Shown piece by piece: positions 9,942 to 64,000 of a DNA stretch of 64,000 bases; positions within the stretch are counted from its first letter, which is position 1, and the number at the start of each line of letters is the position of its first letter. Under the pieces are notes generated by a model, which worked only from the letters and a program-made list of their open reading frames with translations, was not told the DNA's origin and did not search any database. The stretch is from a virus, in IMG/VR virus record IMGVR_UViG_3300036846_001176, positions 29,048-93,047 of that record; one strand, written 5' to 3'. The translations under genes and the position numbers were made by a program.

Positions 9942-10187
9942 ATGATCAAGGCCACGGCAAAGCACAATGGCCGGGACGCCCTCCTGGTGGGCTTGTCATT
10001 TGCCAACCTCGACAGGTTTCGCGCCGAGCCGGCTGACACGTACATCACCATCAAGGGCGATGAACTCGGCCTGTCGCATGACGTGATCATCTTCTCGGGC
10101 CGCACCGAGGCCGACCTGCTCGACCTGCTGAGTTCGGGTTTCAGGGAAACCACCAAGGTGGCGGTTGCCGACAGGCTGAAGAACTAG
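9942..10187 (+). CDS. Hypothetical protein
   Basis: AGGAG RBS 9929-9933; 81 aa. Confidence 0.7.
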   Translation: MIKATAKHNGRDALLVGLSFANLDRFRAEPADTYITIKGDELGLSHDVIIFSGRTEADLLDLLSSGFRETTKVAVADRLKN

Positions 10188-20106: not shown

Positions 20107-22209
20107 TTGCTTCTTGCCAAGCATACGCCCGGGCAACCTCTCTCAGAAGCTGAACACCGCCAGCGGCGCGAGGCCGCGCGCGCGCGATGGGCGGCAGCCG
20201 GCAAGACTGCGGCGATCGGCGCGGTCGGCGGCGGCCTCATCGGTGGCTTCCGCGGCGCTATCCTGAGTGGTGGCAGCGAACGCGCAGCGTCCCTCGCAGC
20301 GAGCGCCGAAGGCCTGCGCCAAGCCTATGTCGCGCGCGCTGCCGAGGAAGCCAGGCGCCGCGACAAGCGCGATGTCGTCCAGCGCTTTTACGAACGCCAG
20401 ATGCGCCAGACGCCGGAAGCCGAGGCGCAGACCACGCTGGCCGAGGCGATCGAAAGCCTGCGCAACCCCTATGCCCGCGCCCAGCGACCGGCGCGGCGCC
20501 CGGTACGCGAGCCGCCGATCGTCGGCAACACCACCAACCACCTGGTCTATACGCGCCTGGTCTGGAAGGCCGAGCGCAATCTGAAGCTCGCCCGCAACAA
20601 GATCGAGGCTCTGGTGCGGGCCAACATGGCCGCCGGCGACGACCGCGAGGCGGCCGAAGCGGAACCGACCGTGCGCAGACTGCGCGTCGAACTCGCCTCG
20701 ACCGAACGCGAACTCAAAGACCTCAAGCGGCTGCGGGATCGGGCCGCCACCATCCAGTCGCGTGCCGAGCACACCCGTACGCCGACCAGGCGGCGCGGCA
20801 AGGAGATCGCCGAGCCGAAGACCCAGCGGGTGAAGGCGAACGTGGTGCGCCAGACCCGGGGTGGCGAAAAGGAGGAGATCGAGGCCGGCCGCGGCCGCAC
20901 GGAACGCGCGGATCTACGGGCCGAACTGGAGCGCCGGCTTGCCCAGCACGACATCAAAACCGAGCGCTTCAAGGCAGCCGCCGAGCGGCGCACCATCACC
21001 GAGACCGCCGAGGCGGTACGGCAGAACCTGCTGTCCGGCCATTACCACTCGCAGATCCTGCGCCGGGCCGGCCGGGGCGCGCTGATCGGTGCCGTCGCCG
21101 GCCTGACCACCGCCGGGGTGGCCCTGCTCGCGCATCACGTGGCGACCGCCGGGCGTCGCCGGGCCACCGCTGTGCATAACCCTGTGGGTCCCGTGCATAA
21201 AACCGGGGACCTCCCGCATAATCCGGGCATGTCGCTTTTTGCTCCCTCATTTGAGGGGCCGAAAAGTGACATGCTCGCCAAGGCCGAGCCGCCGCGCGAC
21301 ACGCCGGAAGGCCAGATGGGCCCCGATCTGGCGGGCGTCTATCGCCGCTGGATCGACCGTCTGCTCGGCCATGGCGATGACCCGGTCAATATCGGCGACG
21401 GCCTGGTCGAGGCGCTCGGCCCGGGCATCACCGAGGCCTTTGCCCAGGGCCTGATCACCCCGCCGATCACCGGGCCCGAGCATCCGGACTATCGCATCGA
21501 TGTCGACTTCGACCTGCTGAACCCGGCGCAGTTGCGCCACATCGCCGAATACAGCCTCGACCGCATCGTCGAGTTGACCGACGCCCAGCGCGAGACCATC
21601 CGCGACGCGCTGCGCGAGCAGAGCGTGCTGCAGGGTATCGGCCCCAAGGACGTCGCCCGCACCATCAAGGAAGCGATCGGCCTGACCACCTACCAGCGTG
21701 GCGTGGTCGCGTCCTTCCGCCGGCAGCTCGAGCAGCTCGATCCGCGCGCGCTGGAGCGCCAGCTCCGCGACAAGCGCTACGACCGCACGCTGTCGGCGGC
21801 GATCGCGGCCAACACGCCGCTCAGCGCCGAGCAGATCGACACCATGGTCGATGCCTACCATCGCAAGATGCTGGCGCTGCGGTCGCAGACCATCGCCCGC
21901 ACCGAGGCGCTGCGTGCCACCTCCTACGGCGGCCTGGCGCGCGCGCAGGAGGTGCTCGACCGGCATCCCGAGCTCGAGGTGACCAAGAAGTGGCTGGCCA
22001 CCGAGGATAACCGCACGCGGCCCACCCACCGCGACCTCGATGGTCGCGAGGTCGACGGCATGCTCGGGCATTTCGTGACCAGCGCCGGCCATCCGATCCG
22101 CTGGCCGCTCGATGAGACCGCGCCGGCCGACGAGGTCATCAATTGCCGCTGCACCCTTCGCTACATCTTCAAGCCGAAGCGGGGCCAGCAACTGGCCGTC
22201 AACGCTTAA
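20107..22209 (+). CDS. Mu gpF/SPP1 gp7-like head morphogenesis protein with long N-terminal extension
   Basis: IARTE...KKWLATEDNRTRPTH..LDG...INCRC at C-terminus; TTG 20107 chosen because ATG 20065 lies within the terminator and GGGGAA precedes TTG. Confidence 0.85.
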   Translation: MLLAKHTPGQPLSEAEHRQRREAARARWAAAGKTAAIGAVGGGLIGGFRGAILSGGSERAASLAASAEGLRQAYVARAAEEARRRDKRDVVQRFYERQMRQTPEAEAQTTLAEAIESLRNPYARAQRPARRPVREPPIVGNTTNHLVYTRLVWKAERNLKLARNKIEALVRANMAAGDDREAAEAEPTVRRLRVELASTERELKDLKRLRDRAATIQSRAEHTRTPTRRRGKEIAEPKTQRVKANVVRQTRGGEKEEIEAGRGRTERADLRAELERRLAQHDIKTERFKAAAERRTITETAEAVRQNLLSGHYHSQILRRAGRGALIGAVAGLTTAGVALLAHHVATAGRRRATAVHNPVGPVHKTGDLPHNPGMSLFAPSFEGPKSDMLAKAEPPRDTPEGQMGPDLAGVYRRWIDRLLGHGDDPVNIGDGLVEALGPGITEAFAQGLITPPITGPEHPDYRIDVDFDLLNPAQLRHIAEYSLDRIVELTDAQRETIRDALREQSVLQGIGPKDVARTIKEAIGLTTYQRGVVASFRRQLEQLDPRALERQLRDKRYDRTLSAAIAANTPLSAEQIDTMVDAYHRKMLALRSQTIARTEALRATSYGGLARAQEVLDRHPELEVTKKWLATEDNRTRPTHRDLDGREVDGMLGHFVTSAGHPIRWPLDETAPADEVINCRCTLRYIFKPKRGQQLAVNA

Positions 22210-22222
22210 TCAGGAGAGAGCC

Positions 22223-23791
22223 ATGGCAGTCGATCCCGCCCAGATCCAGGCCACCCTCGATGGCGAACTGGCCAAGTTCGTCGAAGCCGCCGGCAGTCCC
22301 GAGCGCCAGGCAGAGGTGCTGATCAAGATCGGCTTCTACCGCCAGGAACTCGCCAAGCAGGCCGACATGCTGTCGAGCGTCGATGACGATCTCGCCATCG
22401 AGGTGGCCGAGCAGTGGTTCGGCGAGGGCGACGAGTTGCTCAAGCGGGCGGTGTGGAATGCCTCGGCGGGCTCTGAGGAAATCCCGCTGCGCAAGCAGGC
22501 GCCGGTGCCGGAGGCCGAGCAGGCGCTCGCCAAGATGGTCGACGAGTGCCAGACCGACAACGCCCGCGCGCTGCTGCTGCACAAGATCGGCAGCTACACG
22601 CGCGAGATGAACGACATGGTCGATGCGCTGCAGGGCCAGCCCGATGCGCGGGTCAACGAAGTGGTGACCGCGTGGCTGACCGCCGATCCCGGTGAGACGG
22701 CGTTGAAGAAGAACGTGCTCACCGCGGGCATGCCATCGTCCGGCAGGCGCCTCTACGGCAACGGCGTCGATGGCGATGGCGATCCGGTCAAGGAGACGAT
22801 CGGCAACGCCTCAAGCCATGTCGGCAATGAGCTCGACGGCAGCGAGAAGGGTTCCGATCAGGCCATCCGGCGGACAATTCCGCGACGTCCGACCGGTGAG
22901 GGAGCGGGGAAGCGGGTTCGTGGCAGCTTCCCCGCACCCAACCAGCGTGACGGCGAAACGCCGAGCCCTGGCTCGGGTCCGAACGACACCGGCGACGGTG
23001 GCGTCAATCCCGAGATCATCCGCCGCAAGGGCACCACGGGCGGCCTTGGCAGCGTGAAGGGCGCCGATGCCGAGAGCAACGCGACGGTCACGCAGGACAG
23101 CACCCATGGCACGAACCAGTGGGGCGGTCAGAGCGGCGGCAAGAACCGCAAGCGGAGCAACGAGAGCGACCAGGGCGTGCACACCGCGCAGAAGGCCGAG
23201 TTCATCGCCGACCTGATGAAGATCGCGCCGGACGAGATGGTCGATGCGATCCTCGAGCTACCGGAAGATGACCAGGACCTCGCCGCCGGCGTAGCCGCCA
23301 ACCATGCGGCGGACCTGCTGGCCTGGACGGGCCTAGTGCCTGAGGGTGGGCTTGCCAAGCGGGCGCTCGATGCCTCCGTCACCGAATGGCTGGAGGAGGA
23401 TCCCGACCAGATCCAGCTGAAGAAGTGGGTGGCCGAGGCGTTGACCACCGCCGAGGAAATCCCGCTCGATCTCGGCAAGGCGATCATCGAATGGGAGCCG
23501 GCGGGGCCGCAGTTCACGGTGCGGCGCGAGGTCGGCAAGAGCGAGGTCGGGGGCGGATTGCGGAAGCTCGGTCCCGGCGGCCAGTTGGCACGCACTGCGG
23601 CGATCGTAACGGGCGCGCATTTGGGCGCCGGTGCGGCGGTCGGTGCTGCTGTCGCTGCCGGCCACAAATTCAAGAAGGCGCCGAAGCACACGCTCGCCCA
23701 TCATCTCGGCTACAGCATGCTGTTCAACCCGGTCGCCTACGGCGGCTATCGAGCAGGTCGCGCGATCGGTCAGCGCCCGCGGGGGGATTAA
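22223..23791 (+). CDS. Acidic/helical head-region protein (scaffold-like)
   Basis: AGGAG RBS 22212-22216; two similar helical blocks around a disordered linker. Confidence 0.75.
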   Translation: MAVDPAQIQATLDGELAKFVEAAGSPERQAEVLIKIGFYRQELAKQADMLSSVDDDLAIEVAEQWFGEGDELLKRAVWNASAGSEEIPLRKQAPVPEAEQALAKMVDECQTDNARALLLHKIGSYTREMNDMVDALQGQPDARVNEVVTAWLTADPGETALKKNVLTAGMPSSGRRLYGNGVDGDGDPVKETIGNASSHVGNELDGSEKGSDQAIRRTIPRRPTGEGAGKRVRGSFPAPNQRDGETPSPGSGPNDTGDGGVNPEIIRRKGTTGGLGSVKGADAESNATVTQDSTHGTNQWGGQSGGKNRKRSNESDQGVHTAQKAEFIADLMKIAPDEMVDAILELPEDDQDLAAGVAANHAADLLAWTGLVPEGGLAKRALDASVTEWLEEDPDQIQLKKWVAEALTTAEEIPLDLGKAIIEWEPAGPQFTVRREVGKSEVGGGLRKLGPGGQLARTAAIVTGAHLGAGAAVGAAVAAGHKFKKAPKHTLAHHLGYSMLFNPVAYGGYRAGRAIGQRPRGD

Positions 23792-23797
23792 CCCGCC

Positions 23798-26700
23798 ATG
23801 GACGGCTTCACCTTCTTCCTGCCGCTGACCAAGGCGGATCAAGAGAAGCGCCTGGTCTGGGGCCGTGCGGCCGTCGAGGAACCCGACAAGTCGCGCGAGA
23901 TCATGGACTACACATCGGCCAAGCCGGAGTTCCAGAAATGGAGCGACGGCTACGCCAAGGCCACGCTCGGCAAGAGCTTCGGCAACGTGCGCGCGATGCA
24001 CAACCCGAGGCACCTGGCCGGCAAGATCGCTGAGATCATCTACAACGATCAGGCCAAGGCGGTGGATGTCTGCGTCAAAGTGCTGGACCCGGTCGACTGG
24101 CAGAAGGTCGAGGAGGGTGGCTACACCGGGTTCAGCATCGGCGGCGGGTATTTGAAAAAGTGGACCGACCAGCCCTCCGGCTGCACGCGCTACACGCCCC
24201 GCATCCAGGAGATCAGCTTCGTCGACAGTCCGTGCATTCCTTCGGCGCGGATCATGGAGATGCAGAAGCAGGACGGCTCGACCGAAGAGGTGCGCTTGCG
24301 CGGTGTCGCGCGCTCGTTTGCCGAGCTGCTGCCACCACCGACGTTCGGCGATCTGCATAAGTCAGGAGGAGCGTGGCGCCATCTGGCTGCCGGCGCTGTG
24401 GGTGAAACCGCCGGCAGTGCCGCAGGCTCGATGATTGGCGGGGAAAACATCGGCTCCAACATTGGCGGACAGCTCGGTGGTGCGGCTGGTAGTGCAATCG
24501 GGTCAGCCTTCGGCCCGGTTGGCACGTTTGCGGGTGGGACGCTCGGGAGCCTTGCCGGCTCAGCGATCGGCGGCGCGATCAGCGGTGGCAAGAAGAAAAA
24601 GCCGAAGGTGCCGGATCCAGACGACGATGACGACGACATGGGCAAGGCCGGCTATTCCGGCATGCGCGGCGTCACCGGCATCGTGCGGCCGCCGAAGAAG
24701 CTTCGTCCGGGTGGCAGCATGTTCAAGATCCATCCCGGCATCATCCGCGCGGCCGCGACCGGTGCGCTGCATGGCGCCAAGATCGCGCGCCGCTATGCGC
24801 CGCATGCCGCTCTCATTGGCGCAACCCTTGGCGGCAAGGCTGCCTTCCATGCCTCGCGCCGCATCGGTGGCCGCATTGCCGACCGCATGATGGAGGCCAA
24901 TGTCCGCCGCGCCCGGATCTTCGAGGGCATGCACGGGCACTGGCACAAGCCTGGGCCGCCCTCATCGAGCAGGGCGCTGGTGGTGCATGGCGCCAGTACG
25001 CACGACTTTGCCAGGCGGTTGAGCGAGAAGCAGATGCACCACCTGCTCGCCGGTGCGGGAGCTGCGATGATCGGCGGCGCTGGGGTGGGCGGGGCCACTG
25101 GCTATTTCGGCACTAGGCATGCCAGCCGGCGCGCGGAGCGGGCGCTGACGCCGCGACCACGGCGCATCGCGCGCAAGCAGGAATTGATCGATCGACTGAG
25201 CAAGGCGGCTGCGCCCTCGGTGGCGCGCCGAGGGGCGCGGCTGGCAGCGGAAGCCGCTGCTCTCGGTCTTGGTGTCGGCGTTGGCGCCGCGGCGGCCAAT
25301 AGGTTCCACGCGCCGGAGCCGAAGCCCTGGAAGCACCACCTACTCTATACCGCGACGCTCGGGCCAGCCTATGGCGGGTATCTCGCCGGCCGCTACACCG
25401 CCGGCTTTCGCGATCGAAAGCCGGACACCGAGGTCACCAAGGCCGAGTACGAAGGCTCAGCCGCGGATGAGCGCGAGGACCGGCGTGGCGCGCGTCGCAT
25501 GGGCATGACGCTCGCCCAGTACGAGCGCACGGCGCGCGATCGGCGCGAGGACGCTGCCGGTGAGCGCCGGATGGGCAAGGCAGCGCTTGGTGGGTATCAG
25601 CAGGGCTATGACGACGCGGAGAACGCTGCCGAGGGCACCGAGTTGGCCAATAGCGCGTTCCGCACAGCCGGCAATTTGTACGGCAAGTTGACCGGCAAAA
25701 AGCCGGCGCCGGGCACACAGGGCGCCGTCGAGAAGGTTTCGTTCGGCGCTGTTGCACCAACGCTGCGCACGATCGGCCGGAGCCTCCGTGCCGCACCACT
25801 GAAGACGACACGCCAGTTGGGCGGAGCGGCGGTTGGCCTGGCCGGACGCGCCGCCCGGCGCAATCCTGCGGCCACCTTCGCGGCCGGCGGCCTGACCGGT
25901 GCCGCGCTGGCGCCGTCAGGCAAACGCGAGGACGAAGCGCAGAAGTCCGAACTGGTCGACCTCGAGCAGCTGCGCAAGAACATCCTGCTGCAGGACGACA
26001 ACACGGTGAGCCAGTGGCGCGCCGCGCGCTCCGATCAGTGGGAGCCCTCGCACGCGCTCGACTTCAGCTATCACGATCCGAACGACCCGCATCAGGTGAT
26101 GGCCGGCATGCCGGCGCAGGCCAAGGGACCGATGGAGCTCGCCGAGCCGATGGGCGACATGGCCAAGGCGACCTCGCCCGAGCAGCGCGCGAAAATTCAC
26201 CAGACCATGCACGAGTTCAAGCATGGCCAGTTGCATTCGTTCCGCGCCGGCGTGCCGAAGCGGAAGATGCCGAAGGTGGCCAACCGCAAGCAGGCGATCG
26301 CCATTGCGCTCAACCAGGCGCGTCGGATGGGCAAAGGCGAGGATCCGATTTTCGTTGCCGCGCTGACCGATCGGCTGGAAAAGGCAAGCGCCACACGTGG
26401 GAAACTCGCCGCTCCCGATGAGCCAGGCAGCTACACGCACCGCAAGCCGGGTGGTGGAACTGCGTTGGAAAGGCTCGGCATACATCCAAGGCAGCTAGCG
26501 AACGCCGCTGCCAGAACGGGGGCCGAGTATGCCATGCCGCATGCGACGCTTGCCAATCACCCTGCTATGCATGCCGCGTACAGTGCCATGTATAACGCTG
26601 GCGCCGGCATGGCTGCGGGAAGAGCGGCAGGTCATCTGGCCAGCACTCTCCATCTGACCTCGCCGATCGCGCAGCATGCCGCCGCCGAACTTTCCGCCAC

Positions 26701-37489: not shown

Positions 37490-37909
37490 ATGCCGCCCGC
37501 CGACTTCTCCGTCAGTGTCGAGCGCTGGGTGAACCAGCGGCGCCCGCACGCCGAGGAGATCCGCATCGCGATCGCCGTGGAACTGGTGAACCGGGTGAAG
37601 GAACTGACGCCGGTCGACACCGGCTTCCTGCGCAGCAACTGGACGGCCATCAAAGCGGGCGATGCTCTGCCGATCGCCGGTGCCGTCCCGGATCCGCAAA
37701 CCGCGTTGGCCGGCCTGACGCCGCGCGACCGGATCACGATCATCAATCCGACCCGTTACGCGAGGCGCATCAATTACGGCTTCGTCGGCGAGGACAGCGC
37801 CGGGCGGCACTACCACCAGCAGGGCGCTCACATGCTCGAACAAGCCATGGCCGAGCTGCCGCAGATCGCCGAGCGGGTGCTCGCGCGTTACCAGCAGCCC
37901 GAGCGATGA
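37490..37909 (+). CDS. HK97 gp10-like tail completion protein
   Basis: TPVDTGFLRSNW, YARRINYG. Confidence 0.85.
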   Translation: MPPADFSVSVERWVNQRRPHAEEIRIAIAVELVNRVKELTPVDTGFLRSNWTAIKAGDALPIAGAVPDPQTALAGLTPRDRITIINPTRYARRINYGFVGEDSAGRHYHQQGAHMLEQAMAELPQIAERVLARYQQPER

Positions 37910-38367: not shown

Positions 38368-39570
38368 ATGCCGACATTCGCAACTGGCGTAGCAAAACAA
38401 GTGGCCATCGCCGCCGAGGTGACCGAGGGCGTCAATCCCGTCACCGGCGGGAAATACCTGCGCCGCGTGTCCTCCGACCTGGCGATGAACAAGGACACCT
38501 ACGAGAGCCAGGAAATCCTGGTCTCGCAGCAGATCCGCGACGCCCGCCACGGCGTGCACCGCCCGCAGGGCACCTTCGCCGGCCAGGTCTCGCCCGGGTC
38601 GTTCAACGACTTCTGGGAAGGCATCCTGCGCAACAACTTCATCGCCGGATCCTCGATGGGGCCGTCCAGCCTCGATCTCGATCCAGTAGCCGGCACGCTG
38701 ACCCTGACCGGCGGCGGGTTGCTGGCCGCCGGCTTCAAGCGCCACGACGTGTTCCGGGTCACCGGGGCGGGCGCGCCGAACATCGCGATCAACAACGCCA
38801 ACCTGCGGATCACCGACCTGACCGATACGGTGATCACCAGCCGCGACATCCCGAAGATCACCGGCCTGACCGCCGGCTCGCTGGCCGGCATCACGGTCAA
38901 GGTGGTCGGCAAGAAGGTGTTCATGCCGCCCATCGGCGCGCTCTACAAGTCGTTCTCGATCGAGCACTACTTCAGCGATATCGGCCAGTCCGAACTGTTC
39001 GTCGGCTGCAAGTTCGGCCAGACCTCGATCGCGCTGCCGGCCACCGGGCTGGTGACCTTCAGCTCGCAGGTGATCGGCATGGACATGGTCCAGTCGCCCA
39101 CCCAGCAGCTGACCGCGCCGGCGCCGACCACCACCTCGACGTCGCTCGCCGCGGTCAACGGCCTGGTCGAATACAACGACCAGGACGTGGCGATCATCAC
39201 CGGAATGAACATCCAGCTGAACGGTGCGCTCGGCGCCGATCCGGTGGTGGGCAGCAACATCGTGCCGCACATCTTCCAGGGGCGGTTCCGGGTCACCGGC
39301 AACATGACCGCGCTCTTCATGGACGAGACGATGTTCAACACCTTCCTCAATGAGACCGAGGTTGGTGTCACCTTGATGCTGACCATGGGCTCGGGACCGA
39401 ACGCGGACTTCATGAATTTCATGATGCCGCGCGTGAAGCTGATGGGCTCGACCAAGTCGGATAGCGACATGGCGCTGATCCAGACCTTCAACTTCTCGGC
39501 CTTGGAGAACGTCACCTTCGAGCCGAACGGCGACATGAGCACCTTTGTGATCCAGGACAGCCTTGCGTGA
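38368..39570 (+). CDS. Major tail tube protein
   Basis: [16 protein letters not shown]...[12 protein letters not shown]; position. Confidence 0.85.
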
Positions 39571-42128
39571 TTTCAGGGCCGGACCCGGACGAGGAAGCGG
39601 CCGGTAGCGCCGAGCCGGCTGGCGAGCCGGCTCCCGAAACACCGACCCAGCACGTTGGGCCCATTGTTCAGCCGAGCGCGCCGATGTCGCGCCCGGCGGC
39701 GTGGGTCGGCGATGGCGTGGCGCTGCCGCACTGGCTGACCGCCGGCGCCGTCCCGATCGACCCGACCATCATCACCGGTCAGGACCGCATGCTCCTCGAG
39801 CATGGCGAGGACTACACCCGGTATTACTGCACCCTTGATGATCTCGGGGGATTTGGCGGCGGCGGAACCGGCCCGCGCGGGCCGCCGGGTCCGCCCGGAC
39901 CGCTCGGGCCGGTAGGCCCGCAAGGCGCGCAAGGCCTCACCGGTGCCACTGGGATGACCGGCCTGGCCGGCCAGACCGGGCCGCAGGGCGCGACCGGCCT
40001 GCAAGGCCCACAAGGGCCGCAGGGCAACCCTGGACCGACCGGACCGCAGGGGATCGATGGCCCCGCCGGCATCACAGGGCCGCCGGGTCCGGTGGGGCCG
40101 GCAGGGCCGCAAGGTGCCACCGGGTTGACCGGTGCGGAGGGACCGGAAGGGCCGGTTGGTCCGCCGGGTGCGGGCGCGCAAGGGGATCCCGGACCGACCG
40201 GGCCGCAAGGCGATGTCGGCCCACCAGGTGCCACCGGGCCACAAGGGGCGCCCGGTCCGATCGGTGCGACCGGCCTCGCGGGACCGAAAGGCGATCCCGG
40301 CTCGCCAGGACTGACGGGTCCACCTGGTCCGCAGGGCGACCCCGGGCCGACTGGCCCGCAAGGCAATGTCGGACCGCCGGGTGCCACAGGCGCTGACGGA
40401 GCGACGGGTCCGATCGGCCCGACGGGTGCCACCGGGCTGACTGGCGCCGATGGTCCTGCTGGCGCCCAGGGCCCGCCTGGCACGGGCGCGCAGGGGGATC
40501 CCGGGCCGATCGGGCCGCAAGGGATCGACGGACCGCCTGGTGCGACCGGGCCTGCCGGCCCTCCCGGACCGACCGGCGCCACCGGCCTGACCGGCGTACA
40601 GGGCAACGACGGCCCCGCGGGTTTGACCGGGCCCGCGGGACCGCAGGGCGATCCTGGCCCGGCTGGGCCGCAGGGCGCTACGGGTCCTGCCGGGCCTATC
40701 GGTGCCGATGGTCCGGCTGGTCCTCAAGGACCGACCGGCGCCACCGGATTGACCGGGCCTGCCGGACCTGTCGGGCCCGCGGGACCACAAGGGCCACCCG
40801 GAACCGGCGACGGCACAGGGACGGAGGGTCCGCCCGGACCCGCTGGACCGCAGGGCGATCCTGGACCAGCAGGGCCCACGGGGCCTATCGGCCCAACCGG
40901 CGCGACCGGTCTCACTGGGGCACAGGGCAACGATGGCCCTCAGGGGCCGGCGGGTCCGACCGGTGCCACCGGCGCGCAAGGGCCAGCCGGACCAGCGGGG
41001 GCGCAAGGCGACGTCGGCCCGGCGGGATCGCAGGGCGACGCTGGACCAGTTGGCCCGACCGGCGCCACCGGATTGACCGGCGTGGCCGGTCCTGCGGGTC
41101 CGCAGGGGCCGCCCGGCGTCGGCACCCAGGGCGATCCTGGACCGGCCGGTCCGCAGGGGATCGATGGACCACCCGGCGCCACTGGCCCAGCGGGACCAGC
41201 AGGCCAGACCGGCGCGACCGGCCTGACTGGCGCGCAAGGCAACAATGGACCCCAAGGGCCAGTTGGTCCGACCGGCGCCACCGGGGCGCAGGGGCTTACG
41301 GGACCGAAGGGCGATCAGGGTCTGACAGGGGCGACGGGTGCGGTCGGTGCGACCGGACCGGCCGGCCCGACTGGCGCGACGGGTGCCACCGGGGTGGCCG
41401 GTCCTGCGGGTCCACAAGGGCCGCCCGGCACCGGCATACAGGGACCAGTTGGACCGGCAGGCCCACAGGGGATCGATGGCCCAGCAGGCGCCACGGGTCC
41501 GGCCGGCCCAATTGGTTTAACCGGTGCCACTGGCCTGACCGGCGCAAAGGGCGATCCTGGCGCCACCGGGCCGCAGGGAGTGAAGGGCGATACGGGTGCC
41601 ACCGGCGCAACCGGATCGCAGGGGGTGCAAGGCCCGCAAGGCGTGCAGGGCACGACAGGCGCCACCGGGCCCGCGGGGCCGACCGGCGCCACCGGCTTAA
41701 CCGGACCTGTCGGGCCACAAGGGCCGCAGGGACCGCAGGGCGATCCCGCACAGATCATCGCCGGCAACGGCTTGACCATGACCGGCAGCACGATCGACGT
41801 GGTCGGCACCGCCAACCGGATCGTGGTTGCCGCGGACAGCATCGATATTGCCAGCACCTATGTCGGGCAGACCTCGATCACCACCGTCGGCACGATCGGC
41901 ACCGGCACGTGGCAGGGCACCGTGGTCGGCGTGCCGTATGGCGGATCGGGAGCGACGACGCTAAGCGGCTACCTGAAGGGCAATGGCACGGCGGCGTTCA
42001 CCGGCGTTAGCAGCATTCCGAACACCGACGTCAGCGGGCTCGGCTCGATGAGCACGCAAGGCGCGGGTGCGGTGGCAATCACCGGCGGCACAATCGATGG
42101 GGTCACGCTGGACGGCGGCGTGTTTTAG
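39567..42128 (+). CDS. Collagen-like fibre protein (853 aa)
   Basis: Long Gly-X-Y run with a C-terminal beta-rich domain ending LDGGVF. Confidence 0.9.
39870..41747 (+). repeat. Gly-X-Y collagen repeat (~200 triplets)
   Basis: GGN every 9 nt; recurrent [10 protein letters not shown] and QGDPGP blocks. Confidence 0.95.
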
Positions 42129-57200: not shown

Positions 57201-57664
57201 GCTGGGGCGACGACAGCACCTTCAGCGGCGGTGACTTCGGCGGCGACGTCGGCGGCGGCGGGGACTTCGGTGGTGGCGACTTCGGCGGTGGGGGTGGGGG
57301 CGACCTCGGCGGCGGCTGGGGCGACGACAGCACCTTCGCCCTCGGTGGCATCCCGCGCAGCGGCCTGGCAGGCCTGCGCAACACCATCGTCGAGGCGCCC
57401 ACCGTGTTCCGCTTCGCCGGCGGCGGCCGCACCGGCATGGCCGGCGAGGCAGGCGCCGAAGCCATCCTGCCGCTCAAGCGCGACGGCTCAGGCCGGCTCG
57501 GCGTCTCGGCCGGCGCCTTCGGCGGCGGCAACGGCGGCGACAATCACTTCCACACCTGGAACATCCAGACGCCGAGCCCCGAGAGCTTCATGCGCAGCCG
57601 CAACCAGGTCGAGGCGGCCATGACCCTCTCGATGAGCAAGGCCAGGGCCCGCAACAACCAGTAG
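51248..57664 (+). CDS. Tape measure protein with internal lytic-transglycosylase-like domain (2138 aa)
   Basis: Gln/Ala helical repeats; QETGG...SSASGYFQIVDSTW; C-terminal GEAGAEAILPLKR.GSGRLGV. Confidence 0.9.
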   Translation: MSDRAPLSFDIDSTSAQRAVSVLQTLVTQAQAAVATTTQLAQAQGQLTTSYAQQASEISRLADATRNYGGTLNGLVSQLNQLRTAVTSASGGNLFSGYARMLNEAQAVAAQLNTSVEGIDRFISKARQLNITSQDLATGLGRITDALKGQSAAGINANVMLAQLGVNMSGVSPNQPNLILQRIQDSLRQIQDPTLQVQMAQRVMGPAFTAQDTQQLVRQPYIPYWQQQEQNRRANDRANIDAQQVTAQRLTMEHRQRADELADLQSRFTRFGGFFGRAGVTDFLANPFVTNNELLRQYREIASRPESQRAPNERFGEMGRQAYERSDIARITRNFASGGFTSSQGEIEARFDKDLDDVGRIQATINEIKRTWQNLGGNYQRLTPEQIQTALTPIELRERQRQAGDTLATSFGDARVSNIVRLQDLAEVDQGNQRELYNRAYGGPGFAPGEGERQYRYGQTRRQTELEDLRRPEAGALRDANFRRYIQGLAPGDRARAIAGAAYYRGQTGNEFVPGEGAGADAAYQSPDLSDRARAAGRTLEREGQIGLRAADTEQTQQTIQLQKELAQALTGTRAAAEDALRAWNAYLAAQSNNGDAETRNLAAQHAVTAAMSQRITQGQALVRQQQQENTVAAQRAADASRYATADPVTRAAFMAASGVDAQVQRAIFAGQLQDPTGGRVAVRDANGRITRYDDVRLSDDERRRAEQTNAEYRRGLFSQQAAEGAGAAAAQATGIVSATQTGARTAALMGQGYTAQQAEERATSEQKLAEAAGAAQKAMEETANATDQVGKSAHEAAEQNLHTVQAEQQRLESLTRQLDAQRAIVAVMEQTRQIMEDTNRTINDMKIGDAFRQAADELQRLIQPILNAPGVTGGGGEAQISGVYGVVSGQETGGGRTGTGSNLVNQPLPGQKPSSASGYFQIVDSTWQEYAKKAGVDTTQYPRAIMAPPDVQAHVASLIPLGAWRSSVPGKPGAADIIVQQHPNVNFGMPLGQVATTLGQPMLPTITTTRAGTPVTVTGGQPALPSVSLSIEDIRRLVERGEHLKHGDYGLQDPDIDTINRSVDEVRRKRQVGIQYTTQQLTEQVDRELAAQGGRIRILQGGGGAGEAARVVTRPPGLTDAEWDQRRAQEQRRVVGGQQTEAAGDAARRADEIRRLQEQQRAYTGTIAEQIAAQRDLTAAEQAHQEVQKVGSGILNEADERSRNFVANLAKETDEVRASTAEMQRQRSGMEAAADAAKFGPGAEQKAAELKHITDEIESLQIRLQTANEAERKGIEDAITGYQRKAQAIEETSLAAAKQRTAEEAYRQSTQNQDQMATNALGPFATQLDIRRTQRWMGVAREFAEHPGLEQTQAGQERISAARAADEIDKQTESMNELRQAAQSAGDAMEQAFTAVANRSETAGQAVHNLVGSLNQIALKTFVIKPFEKAMGSLFGDIFGSGDTPSGSSGGKTDNTVFGIAHRLMSGGGGAGAGSGGSSTTATADEDWISRGWHYLFGRKGSGGQGTTGVPTDIASAGKTLADAGVGGTGGGKTETALLAAAQPVYVVNWPTSLGGTGTGAGTTAGNATGGGMGSGGVGGAAGDKALADDLARRGGNVISQRTGIPPENITTNGVPLRGGGTATTGDGIPIKPYPQPDDVTSGGGSGGGGTDGGGGAATSSSPGWFMPSGQSGQQYYDLSPPAWNWQPSAGDTGTGGDSGASQQDLKDQLDQFHRDTLSSNDNAPPDDGSYAGLMSVANDNATGADVSAASGGWDASGDQTSWDTSGGGNARTIQLGGGPRVSRNYSGTELDAGIYGLGQLGRAVPAVGGASASIGGANVNIFSGIMDVLKAGSAQEKSDAAHSGGTAGGSVGGSASGSSSSSPGLLSEIFGHAGGITGWATDKILGKGMYERGGLIGMLSRDIQGKGGDKAADAIKTGGTTPAGSSKVTTQDLATTQKAMADAKDDNTVGSGTDTATTDTSAAGVALYDDPTSTGGDGGDGGGWGDDSTFSGGDFGGDVGGGGDFGGGDFGGGGGGDLGGGWGDDSTFALGGIPRSGLAGLRNTIVEAPTVFRFAGGGRTGMAGEAGAEAILPLKRDGSGRLGVSAGAFGGGNGGDNHFHTWNIQTPSPESFMRSRNQVEAAMTLSMSKARARNNQ

Positions 57665-57675
57665 AGACGAATGGC

Positions 57676-58329
57676 ATGGGCGTCAGCTTCGATGAGGTGC
57701 AGTTTCCGTCCTCGATCAGCCAGGGCGCGGTCGGTGGCATGCGCTTCTCCACCACCGTCATCAGCCTCAGTTCCGGCTCCGAGCACCGCAACATCAACTG
57801 GTCGGCCTCGCGCGGCAAATGGGACGTCAAGCACGGGCTGAAAACGCAGTTCCAGATCGAGCAACTCATCGACTTCTTCGCCGCGCGATACGGGCGCGCC
57901 TACGGGTTTCGCTTCAAGGACTGGATCGATTACCGGGTGCCACGCTGGGAGTACGCGCCGGGCGATCTGTTTCCGATCCCGATCATGTTCACGACAGATG
58001 GCCATACGCCATCGTTCCAGATCACCAAGTTCTACGGCGACGTGAACCGCGGCTACCTACGGATCATCCAAAAACCTGTGAGCGGCTCGGTGGTAGTGCT
58101 GCGCAACGGCGCGCAGATCCTGCCGCCGCAATGGTCGGTCGACGTCACGACTGGCATCGTCACGCTGGCCGCCTCGATCTACACGACGGTGGGCACGCAG
58201 ATCGGGCTCGCGTGTGAGTTCGACGTGCCCGTTCGCTTCGACACCGACGAGATGCAGACCACCATCACGACGACGGAGATTTATAGCTGGGACGCCGTGC
58301 CGATCGTCGAAATCCGCGAGATCAACTGA
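57676..58329 (+). CDS. DUF2460 distal tail protein (RcGTA-like)
   Basis: FDEVQFP..IS.GA.GG..FST.V, FRFKDW.DY, FDVPVRFDTD. Confidence 0.9.
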   Translation: MGVSFDEVQFPSSISQGAVGGMRFSTTVISLSSGSEHRNINWSASRGKWDVKHGLKTQFQIEQLIDFFAARYGRAYGFRFKDWIDYRVPRWEYAPGDLFPIPIMFTTDGHTPSFQITKFYGDVNRGYLRIIQKPVSGSVVVLRNGAQILPPQWSVDVTTGIVTLAASIYTTVGTQIGLACEFDVPVRFDTDEMQTTITTTEIYSWDAVPIVEIREIN

Positions 58330-58360
58330 TGCCGGGACCTTACGATCACCGGCATCAGTT
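58324..58360. terminator. Perfect 12-bp hairpin closing the orphan guide
   Basis: aactgatgccgg / ccggcatcagtt, 13-nt loop. Confidence 0.75.
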
Positions 58361-58418
58361 TCACGCCTGCCATGCCCCGCCGTGTCATGCCTTGTCGTGC
58401 CACGCCGAGCCGGGCCGT
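58361..58418 (-). ncRNA. Stand-alone GGC-NN guide unit
   Basis: Minus strand ac GGC cc GGC tc GGC gt GGC ac GAC aa GGC at GAC ac GGC gg GGC at GGC a GGC gt; same grammar and GGC-A-GGC terminus as array units. Confidence 0.85.
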
Positions 58419-58422
58419 ATGA

Positions 58423-58451
58423 TTACTAAGCCCACCACGATGGACGGTCAA
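58423..58451 (-). promoter_or_regulatory. Sigma70-like promoter for the orphan guide
   Basis: Minus strand TTGACC-17 nt-TAGTAA(T), ending ~5 nt before the first NN. Confidence 0.65.
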
Positions 58452-58456
58452 TAGCG

Positions 58457-59803
58457 ATGCCAAAAACCATCTCCGTCGCCTTGAAGGCCCACATCGCGCA
58501 GACCGTGACGACGCTCGCCACGTGCTGGCGGATCGTGCGCAACGATGGCGCAACGTTCGGGTTCACGACGCATGATGCAGACTTGTTCATCCTCGGCGTG
58601 CCGTACCTGTCGGTCTCGGGGTTTTCGGCGGGGGCGATCCAATCGGGCACCACCGGGCAGGTCGATAACTTGCAGACGCTGGGCTATTTTTCTGACACCG
58701 GCGTCCGGGTGCAGGATGTCAAGAACCGCCTGTTCGACTACGCAACGGTGTTTTTGTTTATGGTGAATTGGCGCGACCTGACCATGGGTCAGATCAACAT
58801 GCGCCGCGGCTGGCTGGGCGAGACGGTGGTGGCGCCGAACGGCGCGTTTGCCGCCGAGCTGCGCGGCATCAACCAGGCGCTGGTGCAGGAGTTCGGCAAC
58901 TTCTTCAGCCCGCTCTGCCGCAACGACCTGGGCGACATGCACTGCCAGGTGCCGATCCTGGCGGCGAAGTGGATCCCGAGCTGGCCGGTCGGCACGGGCA
59001 CGCATATGAGCCAGATGACCGCGACCACCGACGAGACCCGGATCGCGGTCTATGTCGCGACGAATTCCGGCACCACCTGGTCGACCGAGCCGATCTGGAA
59101 CCCGGCCGTCGGCTCATTGACGAATGACAATGACATTGTCTGGCAGTCGATCGAGCCGATCCGCAAGATCGCCTACGCGACGCAGGCGATCGACCAGCAC
59201 AACTTCCTGTCGACGCCCCTAGTGGCGGCGGCCACCATCGGCAACACCGCGCAGATCTCGATCACCAACGACGTCTCACGGGGATCGGCCATCGAGTTCT
59301 CCGACGGCATCAACAGCTGGAGCCTGAGCTTCTACGACGACATGAAGCGCGCCAACGCGGTCGGCTACATCGCCACTCTCCTGCCGACGTCGGGGCTTAA
59401 TTTCAGCTACACCGGCGTGCTCGGGCCGGACAGCTACTACAACATCCAGATCACCAACCTGAACAGCCAGAAGGGCAGCGTCACCAAGACCGGCGACATC
59501 CTTGGCGCTATCGTGATCGACAATTTCGGCGACGCCTACCTCGATGCCGGCACGATCACCTGGGACACCGGCTTCAATGCCGGGGTGACGGTCGAGCTCA
59601 AGACGTACAACCCGACCGCGCAGCAGGTGACCACCTATCTCGGCCTGATGATGCCGGTGACCGCGGGCGACCGGTTCTTCTACTACCCGGGCTGCGACAA
59701 GCGGCGCGACACCTGCGTCAAGAAGTTCAACAACATCCGGAATTTCCGTGGCGAGCCCGACATCCCCGGCATCGACAAGATGCTGTCCTATCCGGACAGT
59801 TGA
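58457..59803 (+). CDS. DUF2163/BR0599 baseplate hub protein
   Basis: TTLATCWRI.R.DG..FGFTTHD; CRNDLGD..C; GCDKRRDTC..KFNN..NFRGEP.IPG. Confidence 0.9.
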   Translation: MPKTISVALKAHIAQTVTTLATCWRIVRNDGATFGFTTHDADLFILGVPYLSVSGFSAGAIQSGTTGQVDNLQTLGYFSDTGVRVQDVKNRLFDYATVFLFMVNWRDLTMGQINMRRGWLGETVVAPNGAFAAELRGINQALVQEFGNFFSPLCRNDLGDMHCQVPILAAKWIPSWPVGTGTHMSQMTATTDETRIAVYVATNSGTTWSTEPIWNPAVGSLTNDNDIVWQSIEPIRKIAYATQAIDQHNFLSTPLVAAATIGNTAQISITNDVSRGSAIEFSDGINSWSLSFYDDMKRANAVGYIATLLPTSGLNFSYTGVLGPDSYYNIQITNLNSQKGSVTKTGDILGAIVIDNFGDAYLDAGTITWDTGFNAGVTVELKTYNPTAQQVTTYLGLMMPVTAGDRFFYYPGCDKRRDTCVKKFNNIRNFRGEPDIPGIDKMLSYPDS

Positions 59804-63825: not shown

Positions 63826-64000
63826 ATGGCCGTATCGCCGATCCTGGAGATCCCGCAGCTCGCACCGACGCAGATCGACAAGGTGCCGGCGATCAACGAC
63901 GATTTCGTCGCCCTCGAGGCGGCGTTCAACGCGCAGTTGCCGATCAGTTTCTCGGCCGGGCCGGTGACGCTGACCTTCGGCCAGTTCAGTCGCAACGAGG
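63826..64000 (+). CDS. DUF2793-like tail protein (partial, runs off window)
   Basis: AGGAGG RBS; SPILEIPQL..TQ..K...INDDF..LE; position after J. Confidence 0.55.
   Translation, partial: MAVSPILEIPQLAPTQIDKVPAINDDFVALEAAFNAQLPISFSAGPVTLTFGQFSRNE

What the first reader, a model, noticed from the sequence alone, without database searches (positions are those of the whole stretch)
58324..58451. Orphan, self-contained guide gene hidden antisense inside the tail operon
Seen: 56 kb from the array, a 127-nt intergenic gap holds a minus-strand TTGACC-17-TAGTAA promoter, one unit of GGC/GAC-NN pentamers ending in GGC-A-GGC like the array units, and a perfect 12-bp hairpin. This mirrors the array layout (pentamers, then hairpin) and marks the natural boundaries of one mature guide. 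Inference: guides can be dispersed as single-gene cassettes and act in trans with the distant RAMP protein.
Basis: partly seen in the sequence, partly recalled or inferred. Interest (0 to 1): 0.9.

Follow-up and report, generated by a model that had tools for sequence, protein, structure and literature searches.

The report
Lone VIPR guide-RNA gene in tail operon
The 127-base gap between two tail genes of this soil phage holds a small inserted gene for a single guide RNA of the recently described VIPR RNA-guided DNA-silencing system, and its code spells rival phages' versions of the tail gene it sits behind, which suggests a weapon kept next to its own resistant allele.

Summary
Observation confirmed. 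The gap holds, on the minus strand, TTGACC-17-TAGTAA, ten GGC/GAC-NN pentamers ending in GGC-A-GGC, and a perfect 12-bp hairpin.

The element is a solo vrRNA cassette of a VIPR system, a known kind (bioRxiv 10.64898/2026.04.26.720920; solo vrRNAs in 10.64898/2026.10.15.759431).
- The phage encodes a Vipr protein 56 kb away. Its model's five best AlphaFold-cluster matches are the five founder Vipr accessions named in the paper.
- Nine such islands or arrays in the 104.5-kb genome share the layout.
- The cassette is a 128-bp insertion that relatives lack. A 96%-identical phage from another study keeps it almost unchanged.

Read by the published 1-nt-skip rule, the nine NN spell [IM]PV[IM][FL]VT[DE]G, in frame.
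- The single best match in the whole genome is the adjacent DUF2460 tail gene (15/18).
- The sister phage scores 16/18; more distant phages' DUF2460 genes score 17/18.
- At least four other solo guides here, and some in the sister phage, also best match a neighbouring gene.

No RNA data exist, so transcription and Vipr binding are inferred. The own-gene match (83%) is above the published 80% target threshold, so self-regulation is not excluded. This scan had already found orphan VIPR guides on other DNA, in phages without vipr.

The parts
58446..58451 (-). -35-like hexamer TTGACC of the guide gene
   Evidence: Read directly. TTGAC lies 35-45 nt upstream of the first GGC in 5 of 9 islands, against a 1.5% background per 21-nt window. 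The X2 variant has TTGACG here, the form seen in three other islands.
58423..58428 (-). -10-like hexamer TAGTAA, 17 nt after the -35. The predicted transcript start is near 58416-58418.
   Evidence: Read directly. It matches TATAAT at only 3 of 6 positions and is not called by the consensus scan. The start position is inferred.
58365..58416 (-). vrRNA repeat tract of ten GGY-like/NN pentamers (8 GGC, 2 GAC) plus a terminal GGC. The nine variable NN are CC TC GT AC AA AT AC GG AT, followed by the constant GGC-A-GGC end.
   Evidence: Parse. Enrichment. Unit number lies within the published 9-16 range.
58324..58360 (-). Perfect 12-bp hairpin with a 13-nt loop. It is the likely 3' end or terminator of the guide RNA, and it overlaps the TGA stop of the DUF2460 gene on the other strand.
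   Evidence: Every island in the genome ends in a GC-rich hairpin 5-9 nt after GGC-A-GGC.
58328..58333 (.). Left copy of the 6-bp direct repeat GATGCC that bounds the 128-bp insertion
   Evidence: The junction TGATGCC is single in relatives L141, L142 and at the right side in L001.
58456..58461 (.). Right copy of the direct repeat GATGCC. It contains the true ATG of the hub gene.
58329..58454 (+). 41-codon ORF that fills the gap. Its start is the duplicated hub-gene ATG. It is a by-product of the insertion, and might at most bridge translational coupling.
   Evidence: No Pfam match. The gap is absent in relatives. Both X2 differences inside it are non-synonymous (codon positions worked out by me).
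57976..58001 (+). Near-target site in the phage's own DUF2460 gene (IPIMFTTDG). It matches 15 of 18 informative bases, in frame, with the skipped bases at wobble positions.
   Evidence: It is the unique best match in the 104.5-kb genome on both strands, 368 nt from the guide.
57676..58329 (+). DUF2460 (distal-tail-type) gene, the family whose alleles the guide spells
   Evidence: Pfam PF09343, E 5e-58
58457..59803 (+). Baseplate hub gene downstream of the cassette
   Evidence: Pfam PF09931 and PF09356
2418..3263 (-). vipr gene (281 aa, minimal RAMP), the presumed protein partner acting in trans
   Evidence: AF2 model with pLDDT 77. The top five AFDB-cluster hits are the five founder Vipr accessions of the VIPR paper. 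PDB hits are Csm3/Cas7 RAMPs.
1912..2418 (-). Coupled accessory (vap-like) gene between vipr and the array
   Evidence: ORF and translation. No Pfam match. The role is inferred from its position.
991..1899 (-). Main staggered vrRNA array of about 17 units, each ending in GGC-A-GGC. It closes with a hairpin whose loop AACGGTTCACCG is conserved.

Best explanation
The gap is a 128-bp inserted cassette that encodes one VIPR guide RNA (vrRNA) on the minus strand, antisense to the tail operon.

Expected course of events:
- Transcription starts at its own TTGACC-N17-TAGTAA promoter near 58417.
- It runs through ten GGY-NN pentamers and ends at the 12-bp hairpin.
- Vipr protomers made from the gene 56 kb away (window 2418-3263) coat the repeats, one protomer per pentamer.
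- They present the nine variable dinucleotides, which read double-stranded DNA with one skipped base per unit.

The code spells [IM]PV[IM][FL]VT[DE]G, a conserved stretch of DUF2460 distal-tail genes. The likely job is to bind and silence the tail operon of co-infecting or resident rival phages that carry matching alleles (IPVFFVTDG, IPVLFVTDG, IPVMFTTDG). The phage's own allele (IPIMFTTDG) differs at three informative bases.

The guide sits directly behind its own mismatched allele. Weapon and immunity would therefore be inherited together when related phages recombine.

Shown here: the anatomy, the insertion, the Vipr fold, the code matches and their statistics.
Inferred: transcription, RNA ends, Vipr loading, silencing, and that 15/18 is too weak for self-silencing.
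For: System present.
- The vipr model's five best AFDB-cluster hits (E 1e-14 to 4e-7) are exactly the five accessions the VIPR paper names as founders.
- The PDB hits are Csm3/Cas7 RAMPs.
- The array has 4-nt GGC-A-GGC steps, which fits the published 'staggered arrays'.

Same architecture as the other islands.
- A promoter-like TTGAC lies at -35 to -45 in 5 of 9 islands. All islands have 9-12 pentamers, a GGC-A-GGC end and a hairpin.
- Islands that lie inside operons are all antisense to the flanking genes, so each needs its own promoter.

Insertion.
- In relatives the DUF2460 stop overlaps the hub gene start.
- Here GATGCC is duplicated at both ends of the insert.
- None of 21 other DUF2460 loci has pentamers nearby.

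Conservation.
- An X2 contig from another study is 96% identical over 57600-59000, with 51 differences in 1401 nt.
- Among the differences the output lists, only two fall in the cassette and none falls in the pentamers or the hairpin stems. One is in the hairpin loop. The other turns TTGACC into TTGACG. Ten further differences are not listed in that output.

Information in the NN.
- The unique best self-match (15/18) lies 368 nt away, in frame and wobble-aligned.
- Only 9 of 200 permuted guides reach that score anywhere in the genome.
- The homologous site scores 16/18 in the sister phage. It scores 17/18 in L136, L137, L138, L139 and L255, which are DUF2460 genes of other phages.
- None of 300 permutations of NN order reaches 8/9 residue compatibility with any of 119 DUF2460 homologues. 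The real guide reaches it in 12.

Same habit elsewhere.
- The solo guides i10026, i22518_u1, i23008 and i100300, and the array-edge guides i20050_u10 and i30038_u3, each have their unique best genome-wide match 55-830 nt away.
- In ±1.5-kb neighbourhoods of other viral contigs, permuted guides of the 34 solo guides gave 0.0 such matches.
- Guides of the sister phage match our alleles better than their own: 20/22 against 17/22, 17/20 against 15/20, and 15/18 against 13/18.
Against: - There is no RNA evidence at all. Only DNA runs from soil metagenomes hold the sequence.
- The -10 element is poor and the generic promoter scan finds nothing.
- The hairpin is unrelated to the conserved terminal hairpin of the arrays (loop AACGGTTCACCG) and has no U-tract on either strand.
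- Two of the ten scaffold triplets are GAC rather than GGY.
- No perfect 18/18 DUF2460 target was found in IMG/VR or in the metagenome sample.
- Many perfect matches exist in unrelated contexts, so database-wide hits alone prove nothing.
- The phage's own allele scores 83%, above the published 80% cut-off at which the authors saw no self-hits.
- Three other solo guides have no hit of 21/24 or better in the sister phage.
- The neighbour-gene habit was not seen in 34 solo and 432 array guides of 109 other viral loci.
Confidence: 0.75

Rival explanations
1. The element is the same guide RNA, but it acts on the phage's own tail operon. The Vipr-guide complex binds the 15/18 site inside the phage's own DUF2460 gene and damps or times transcription of the downstream baseplate genes, or keeps late genes quiet in a lysogen.
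For: - The own site is the unique best match in the genome and scores 83%, above the 80% threshold used for natural targets.
- All neighbour-matching solo guides score 79-83% on their own neighbour.
- The RNA would be made right next to the site.
Against: - Foreign alleles match better than the own allele (16/18 and 17/18 against 15/18).
- For sister-phage guides the foreign allele also beats the own one in three of three comparable cases.
- Relatives manage the same operon with no gap and no guide.
- The published systems show lower self-scores than non-self scores and no self-targets.
Confidence: 0.12
2. The cassette is a decaying or hitch-hiking copy of a guide unit with no present function, for example a scar of recombination with the array or with another phage.
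For: - The -10 is weak and two scaffold triplets are degenerate (GAC).
- No perfect target was found.
- The junction is a hot spot for selfish inserts. The sister phage has an HNH/His-Me endonuclease gene there.
Against: - A 96%-identical variant from another study keeps the pentamers, the NN and the stems unchanged, and its only change in the promoter region moves the -35 towards the family consensus.
- The NN still spell a conserved, in-frame protein motif.
- The GGC-A-GGC end and the hairpin are intact.
Confidence: 0.06
3. The element works on the plus strand. The hairpin would be a terminator or an RNA-stabilising structure after the DUF2460 gene. The C-rich (NNGCC)n stretch would be a spacer or a Rho-loading site. 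The 41-codon ORF would be a real small gene or a bridge for translational coupling.
For: - The hairpin abuts the stop codon and is followed by TTT on the plus strand.
- The ORF starts at an ATG that overlaps the TGA stop, and it ends 2 nt before the hub gene ATG.
- The plus strand of the tract is C-rich.
Against: - Termination in the middle of an essential tail operon would be harmful, and relatives have no gap at all.
- The ORF start is simply the duplicated hub gene ATG.
- The peptide's CHA repeats follow automatically from the NNGCC period, the ORF has no family match, and both X2 differences in it are non-synonymous.
- None of this explains why the NN spell a DUF2460 motif.
- A bridging role for the ORF could coexist with the guide.
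Confidence: 0.04

Closest known systems
VIPR systems (Vipr RAMP protein plus vrRNA). Type example: Escherichia phage SUSP1. bioRxiv 10.64898/2026.04.26.720920 and 10.64898/2026.04.26.720927.
   Same: - A phage-borne minimal RAMP protein.
- Guide RNA made of 9-16 GGY/NN pentamers followed by a structured 3' part.
- NN read DNA with one skipped base that falls on codon wobble positions.
- Targets lie in rival mobile elements.
- The G-loop motif D-W-G-R of this Vipr matches the residues reported to hold G1, G2 and Y3.
   Different: - Here the guide lies 56 kb from vipr, inside a structural operon and antisense to it.
- Its 3' part is a plain hairpin, not the SUSP1 pseudoknot tail.
- The scaffold is almost always GGC, with GAC, GTC or CGC variants.
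- The host is an unknown high-GC soil bacterium.
- The VIPR type (I-VII) could not be assigned with the tools available.
Staggered vrRNA arrays (fig. S18 of the VIPR paper)
   Same: Units in this phage's arrays are separated by 4-nt steps (GGC-A-GGC), which means neighbouring pentamers overlap by 1 nt. The solo cassette ends with the same motif.
   Different: The cassette is a single unit with its own promoter and hairpin, not part of an array.
Solo or orphan vrRNAs of satellites and VIPR-null phages (bioRxiv 10.64898/2026.10.15.759431)
   Same: - Stand-alone guide genes away from a complete VIPR locus.
- Wobble-aligned targets.
- Self-match scores lower than non-self scores.
   Different: - Those guides sit in elements without vipr and borrow or misdirect another element's Vipr. 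Most lie at the site of a vipr-vap1 deletion, and they aim at vipr, at vrRNAs, at satellites or at host REP decoys.
- This one is in a vipr-positive phage, is one of several dispersed cassettes, and spells the structural gene next to it.
Free-standing homing endonuclease genes of phages, with intronless homing and marker exclusion (from my own knowledge of T-even phage Seg and Mob enzymes)
   Same: A selfish cassette inserted between genes that acts on the homologous locus of related phages, while the carrier's own neighbouring allele is resistant. The sister phage carries an HNH/His-Me endonuclease ORF at exactly this junction.
   Different: Recognition here would be RNA-guided, and by published data it silences rather than cuts. 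No gene conversion has been shown. This is an analogy only.
Virus-borne mini-CRISPR arrays used in conflicts between related viruses (from my own knowledge; Medvedeva et al. 2019)
   Same: Guide-only or minimal loci on viruses whose targets are close relatives.
   Different: The repeat-spacer architecture is different and they depend on host Cas proteins. Here the effector protein is encoded by the phage itself.

Membership tests
VIPR vrRNA | Tandem YNNGG (GGY/NN) pentamers, 9-16 units, with a conserved scaffold and variable NN | tested here: met
   Ten units plus a terminal GGC. Eight are GGC and two are GAC, and the NN are all different in sequence context. Enrichment over chance. The published method notes frequent internal degeneracy.
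VIPR vrRNA | A Vipr (minimal RAMP) protein available to bind it | tested here: met
   The window 2418-3263 protein model hits A0A0F9A1L0, X1U2U4, A0A661D0E2, A0A1F4YLN4 and A0A2D6XG06 as its top five. These are the founder Vipr accessions listed in the paper. RAMP hits in PDB.
VIPR vrRNA | Structured, conserved 3' tail after the repeats | tested here: inconclusive
   A stable 12-bp hairpin follows 5 nt after GGC-A-GGC. It is unrelated in sequence to the arrays' terminal hairpin, and each solo cassette has a different one.
VIPR vrRNA | Expressed as a small RNA of about 100 nt or less | not testable with these tools
   Only soil-metagenome DNA runs hold the sequence. A promoter-like site is the only indirect support.
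VIPR vrRNA | Co-purifies with Vipr and guides DNA binding | not testable with these tools
   This needs pull-down and reporter assays.
VIPR vrRNA | Natural target under the 1-nt-skip rule with at least 80% NN match, usually wobble-aligned in a coding sequence of a rival element | tested here: met
   17/18 (94%) in the DUF2460 genes of L136, L137, L138, L139 and L255, and 16/18 in the sister phage. All are in frame with the skipped base at the wobble position. Permutation control.
VIPR vrRNA | No self-target at 80% or more on the guide's own contig (as reported for the published sets) | tested here: not met
   The phage's own DUF2460 site scores 15/18, or 83%. This is a reported property rather than a definition, and it keeps the self-regulation rival alive.
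Solo/orphan vrRNA in the sense of Lopez et al. 2026 | The guide is carried by an element that lacks vipr | tested here: not met
   The same 104.5-kb genome encodes Vipr. The cassette is solo by position only.
Intrinsic terminator of the tail operon | GC-rich stem followed by a U-tract on the transcribed strand | tested here: not met
   The terminator scan finds none. Only TTT follows on the plus strand and there is no T-run on the minus strand.
Small protein gene (41 aa) | Conserved ORF with homologues | tested here: not met
   No Pfam hit. The gap is absent in relatives. The ORF start is the duplicated hub gene ATG.

The most novel reading that the evidence does not exclude
Dispersed VIPR guides in this phage lineage are allele-linked weapons. 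Each cassette is inserted beside the phage's own mismatched ('immune') copy of the gene whose rival alleles it silences. Guide and immunity therefore travel together through recombination between co-infecting relatives. This would be an RNA-guided counterpart of free-standing homing endonucleases and marker exclusion, and it could bias which alleles of structural genes survive mixed infections. The sister phage's endonuclease gene at the same junction, and its guides that match our alleles at up to 20/22, would be the other side of the same arms race.
Probability: 0.35. Interest if true: 0.8.

Novelty: new variant of a known kind. Interest (0 to 1): 0.6.

Why it matters
VIPR was described only in 2026, mainly in enterobacterial phages, with guides next to vipr or left behind after vipr was lost. 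This soil phage shows three further things.
- A vipr-positive phage can scatter single-guide cassettes through its genome, antisense inside operons, each with its own promoter and hairpin.
- Such guides can aim at structural genes of relatives.
- In this lineage each guide sits beside the gene it spells. That placement gives a directly testable model for how a phage avoids shooting itself and keeps weapon and immunity linked.

There are also practical consequences.
- Annotation pipelines that inspect only about 20 kb around vipr will miss such guides.
- Short 'intergenic gaps' or small ORFs in phage operons may be guide genes.
- The cassette gives natural boundaries for a minimal expression unit, with promoter, about 50 nt of repeats and a hairpin in 128 bp.

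Tried and rejected
- **41-aa ORF as a gene.** Rejected. It has no family, the gap is absent in relatives, and its start is the duplicated hub gene ATG.
- **Known RNA family.** No Rfam match at E up to 1 in 57600-59000.
- **Generic promoter and terminator scan.** It calls nothing in 57600-59200.
- **RNA evidence.** No RNA run holds the stretch.
- **Exact 18-base target search in IMG/VR.** One hit (L135), in a low-GC contig, on the strand opposite the ORF, with the skipped base at codon position 1. I judged it chance, because about one to two hits are expected.
- **Relaxed 17-base search in IMG/VR.** L139 is a real DUF2460 gene. L140 lies in an unrelated context.
- **Metagenome scan.** Only 1 of 122 hits was in DUF2460 (L255). 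Fifty hits were perfect 18/18 matches in other contexts, mostly a PDZ-protease motif MPVMFVTEG in contigs of about 48% GC and a repeated inverted element in high-GC contigs. Database-wide perfect hits are therefore not diagnostic for an 18-base code.
- **DNA of the best protein-level candidate.** P0209 (IPVFFVTDGV) would score 19/20 with the expected codons, but its DNA could not be fetched.
- **Reciprocal test.** Three other solo guides of this phage have no hit of 21/24 or better in the sister phage.
- **Generality test.** The neighbour-gene habit does not appear among 34 solo and 432 array guides in 109 other viral loci.
- **First array guide against 119 Vipr homologues.** The phage's own protein is the best match at residue level (10/11), and no better foreign allele was found.
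- **Early TRAP-like and Rho-loading ideas for the pentamers.** Dropped once the VIPR papers and the Vipr fold were in hand.
Full report
**What is at the coordinates**

The window is part of a single-contig, 104,559-bp phage genome with 66% G+C. It comes from a soil metagenome. The tail module is of the RcGTA type:
- a 2138-aa tape measure gene;
- a 217-aa DUF2460 gene at 57676-58329;
- a gap;
- a 448-aa baseplate hub gene at 58457-59803;
- a 144-aa gene and a 1192-aa gene.

Read on the minus strand, the gap contains in order:
- TTGACC (58451 to 58446), 17 nt, then TAGTAA (58428 to 58423), then six bases;
- ten pentamers: GGC-CC, GGC-TC, GGC-GT, GGC-AC, GAC-AA, GGC-AT, GAC-AC, GGC-GG, GGC-AT, GGC-A;
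- one more GGC, then five bases;
- a perfect 12-bp hairpin with arms at 58360-58349 and 58335-58324.

The hairpin's arm covers the TGA stop of the DUF2460 gene. The pattern GCC(NNGCC)3 occurs 28 times in the window against 0.23 expected. All hits lie in the array near position 1000-1900 or in this gap. The -10 is weak, and the generic promoter scan does not report the site.

**The pentamers belong to a known system**

A literature search on pentanucleotide repeats led to the VIPR preprints.
- VIPR systems consist of a minimal RAMP protein (Vipr), often an accessory gene (vap), and vrRNAs.
- vrRNAs are made of 9-16 GGY/NN pentamers followed by a structured 3' part.
- The NN dinucleotides read double-stranded DNA with one skipped base per unit. 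The skipped base usually falls on a codon wobble position.
- Natural targets are rival phages and satellites.
- 'Staggered' arrays, in which neighbouring vrRNAs overlap by 1 nt, are described.
- A later preprint describes solo or orphan vrRNAs on satellites and on phages that have lost vipr. Their self-match scores are lower than their non-self scores.

**The protein partner**

The 281-aa protein at window 2418-3263 (minus strand) has no Pfam family but 1923 homologues. I modelled it from a 35-sequence alignment, giving pLDDT 77.
- Against AlphaFold clusters its five best hits are A0A0F9A1L0, X1U2U4, A0A661D0E2, A0A1F4YLN4 and A0A2D6XG06, with E from 1e-14 to 4e-7.
- These are exactly the five accessions that the VIPR paper's methods list as the founding Vipr hits.
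- Against the PDB it hits Csm3/Cas7 subunits of type III and type VII complexes.
- Its C-terminal loop contains D-W-G-R. This corresponds to the G-loop residues reported to hold the GGY bases.

The phage therefore encodes Vipr. A coupled small gene and a roughly 900-nt array follow on the same strand. The array's units are separated by GGC-A-GGC steps of 4 nt, which fits the staggered type.

**The gap is one of many islands with one shared layout**

A genome-wide scan found nine pentamer islands or arrays, plus one coding false positive. In guide orientation they read as follows.
- A promoter-like stretch comes first. TTGAC lies 35-45 nt before the first GGC in five of nine islands, against a 1.5% background.
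- Then come 9-12 pentamers.
- Then GGC-A-GGC.
- Then 5-9 nt and a GC-rich hairpin.

Four arrays or islands end in a hairpin with the conserved loop (A/G)ACGGTTCACCG and co-varying stems. The five single cassettes, this one included, have unrelated hairpins that abut the stop codon of the gene on the other strand. Every island inside an operon is antisense to its neighbours. That explains why each needs a promoter of its own. The main array has no promoter-like TTGAC and follows vipr and the vap-like gene on the same strand.

**The cassette is an insertion and is kept**

- In relatives with 49-72% identical DUF2460 proteins, the stop of that gene overlaps the start of the hub gene. The junction reads TGATGCC.
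- Here GATGCC stands at both ends of a 128-bp insert, at 58328-58333 and 58456-58461.
- This also explains the 41-codon plus-strand ORF that fills the gap so neatly. Its ATG is the duplicated hub gene start. The NNGCC period rarely makes stop codons.
- The nearest relative (G001) is a complete 102.6-kb phage whose DUF2460 protein is 89% identical. It has no pentamers at this junction. Instead it carries a 172-aa ORF with His-Me/HNH endonuclease signatures.
- None of 21 other DUF2460 loci has pentamers within about 3 kb.
- A contig from a different soil study (X2) covers 57600-59000 at 96% identity. Of its 51 differences, only two of those listed lie in the cassette: one in the hairpin loop, and one that changes TTGACC to TTGACG, the -35 form of three other islands. 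Ten differences were not listed in the output. From the order of the table they appear to lie beyond 58540.

**What the guide spells**

I applied the published rule, replacing each GGY by one wildcard, and scored the matching informative bases as both papers do. Read on the plus strand, the nine NN give AT.CC.GT.AT.TT.GT.AC.GA.GG, which is [IM]PV[IM][FL]VT[DE]G.

| Site | Peptide | Score |
|---|---|---|
| Own DUF2460 gene, window 57976-58001 | IPIMFTTDG | 15/18 |
| Sister phage, homologous site | IPVMFTTDG | 16/18 |
| L136, L139, L255 | IPVFFVTDG | 17/18 |
| L137, L138 | IPVLFVTDG | 17/18 |

- The own-gene site is the single best match in the entire genome, on either strand. It lies inside the adjacent DUF2460 gene, in frame, with the skipped bases at wobble positions.
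- The 17/18 sites lie in a more distant DUF2460 clade from three independent sources: an NCBI metagenome assembly, an IMG/VR viral contig and a JGI metagenome. All are in frame.
- Only 9 of 200 permuted guides reach 15/18 anywhere in the genome.
- None of 300 permutations reaches 8/9 residue compatibility with any of 119 DUF2460 homologues. The real guide reaches it in 12.

A terminator, a spacer or a small-ORF reading does not predict any of this.

**A habit of this lineage**

Other guides here also have their unique best genome-wide match close by.

| Guide | Score | Distance | Location of the match |
|---|---|---|---|
| i10026 | 16/20 | 252 nt | neighbouring sequence |
| i22518_u1 | 19/24 | 135 nt | the next gene |
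| i23008 | 19/24 | 55 nt | last 12 codons of the neighbouring gene |
| i100300 | 19/24 | 67 nt | neighbouring gene |
| Last unit of the second array (i20050_u10) | 16/20 | 410 nt | neighbouring sequence |
| First full unit of the main array (i30038_u3) | 18/22 | 827 nt | inside vipr itself (VTMQHAKLSIF) |

- In the vipr case, two of the three mismatched NN positions (three of the four mismatched bases) are Ser and Leu codons. The guide expects the alternative codon families (AGY, CTN), whereas the gene uses TCG and TTG.
- In ±1.5-kb neighbourhoods of other viral contigs, permuted guides gave 0.0 such hits for the 34 solo guides and 0.5 for the 432 array guides. The real guides gave 0 and 3.
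- The habit is therefore real here but not general.
- The sister phage has dispersed guides too. Several match a neighbour at 15/18 or 16/18.
- Three of its guides match our genome better than its own: 20/22 at window 37685-37716 against 17/22; 17/20 at window 63829 against 15/20; and 15/18 against 13/18.
- In the other direction, our orphan guide scores 16/18 on the sister phage. Three other solo guides of ours do not reach 21/24 there.

**Most likely mechanism**

A roughly 95-nt minus-strand RNA is made from the cassette's own promoter. It is capped by the hairpin and coated by Vipr supplied in trans. It is used against the DUF2460 gene, and so against the tail operon, of competing phages. 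The phage's own allele escapes through three mismatched informative bases.

One of those mismatches lies in the third NN from the 3' end. R-loop formation is reported to start at the 3' end; that this mismatch weakens self-binding is my inference.

Keeping the guide next to the mismatched allele would prevent recombinants that carry the guide together with a sensitive allele. This step is inference.

I put about 0.85 on 'it is a vrRNA-type guide cassette'. I put about 0.6 on 'it targets rival DUF2460 alleles rather than its own gene'.

**What weakens the case**

- There are no RNA data.
- The -10 is weak.
- Two scaffold triplets are GAC.
- The hairpin is not the arrays' conserved one.
- No perfect DUF2460 target was found.
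- An 18-base code finds many perfect but irrelevant matches in large databases.
- The own-gene score of 83% lies above the 80% cut-off at which the authors found no self-hits.

**Novelty**

VIPR, its code and solo vrRNAs are already published. This scan had also already met orphan VIPR guides in other genomes, in phages without vipr. Four things go beyond that:
- solo cassettes dispersed through a vipr-positive phage;
- their antisense placement inside operons;
- a structural-gene target;
- in this lineage, placement beside the gene they spell.

I class this as a new variant of a known kind.

Noticed in passing
L001:3651-4169 (sister phage G001): At exactly the DUF2460/hub junction where this phage has the guide cassette, the sister phage carries a 172-aa ORF with His-Me/HNH homing-endonuclease signatures and an HTH (Pfam PF05551 E 5e-6, PF13392, PF13518). 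Its start and stop overlap the flanking genes. The junction looks like a hot spot for competitive or selfish inserts.
   Followed up: partly
window 37685-37716 (in gene 37490-37909): A dispersed guide of the sister phage (G001:91315-91346, locus L172) matches this site at 20/22 informative bases. It matches its own allele at only 17/22. This predicts that the sister phage targets this phage.
   Followed up: partly
window 63829-63857 (start of gene 63826-64965): Another sister-phage guide (locus L171) matches here at 17/20, against 15/20 on its own allele.
   Followed up: no
window 2719-2750 (inside vipr): The first full unit of the main array spells VT[IM]L[HQ]A[KN]L[RS][IM][FL]. It matches vipr's own VTMQHAKLSIF at 18/22. 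Two of the three mismatched positions are Ser and Leu codons from the alternative codon families (TCG instead of AGY, TTG instead of CTN), which looks like escape by synonymous recoding. No better-matching foreign vipr was found among 119 homologues.
   Followed up: partly
G000:C1:20050-20565, and 2209-2298, 10026-10085, 22518-22656, 23008-23072, 24704-24763, 100300-100394 (outside the window): A second vrRNA array of about 10 units with its own TTGACG promoter-like site, and six further small guide islands, lie elsewhere in the same genome. Most are antisense within early-gene operons.
   Followed up: partly
G000:C1 about 2100-2200, 22950-23000 and 24640-24700 (outside the window): Several early genes next to guide islands are preceded by a shared leader, GGCAGAGA followed by a short hairpin and GAAAG, about 10 nt before the ATG. 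Its function is unknown.
   Followed up: no
window 960-995, and G000:C1 about 20550-20600, 22650-22690, 24765-24800: The hairpins that close the arrays share the loop (A/G)ACGGTTCACCG, with different but complementary stems. This is probably the conserved 3' tail of array transcripts in this VIPR clade. I did not build a covariance model.
   Followed up: no
L230 (1201-1226 plus strand, 3086-3111 minus strand), L264, L205, L232, L256, L259: A repeated element in high-GC metagenome contigs, present in inverted copies on one contig, matches the orphan guide's 18 informative bases perfectly in a frame that holds stop codons. It may be chance in a multi-copy element. It could also be a decoy-like site of the kind reported for REP elements.
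   Followed up: no
window 58300-58334, X1 record 4: A 151-nt contig from the source sample aligns to the end of the DUF2460 gene with five differences. It then continues into a diverged version of the hairpin (right arm CCCGGCATCAGG). A third variant of the cassette probably exists.
   Followed up: no
window 39868-41741: Long runs with 9-nt and 18-nt periods (Gly-X-Y type, collagen-like) lie in the 853-aa ORF at 39567-42128.
   Followed up: no
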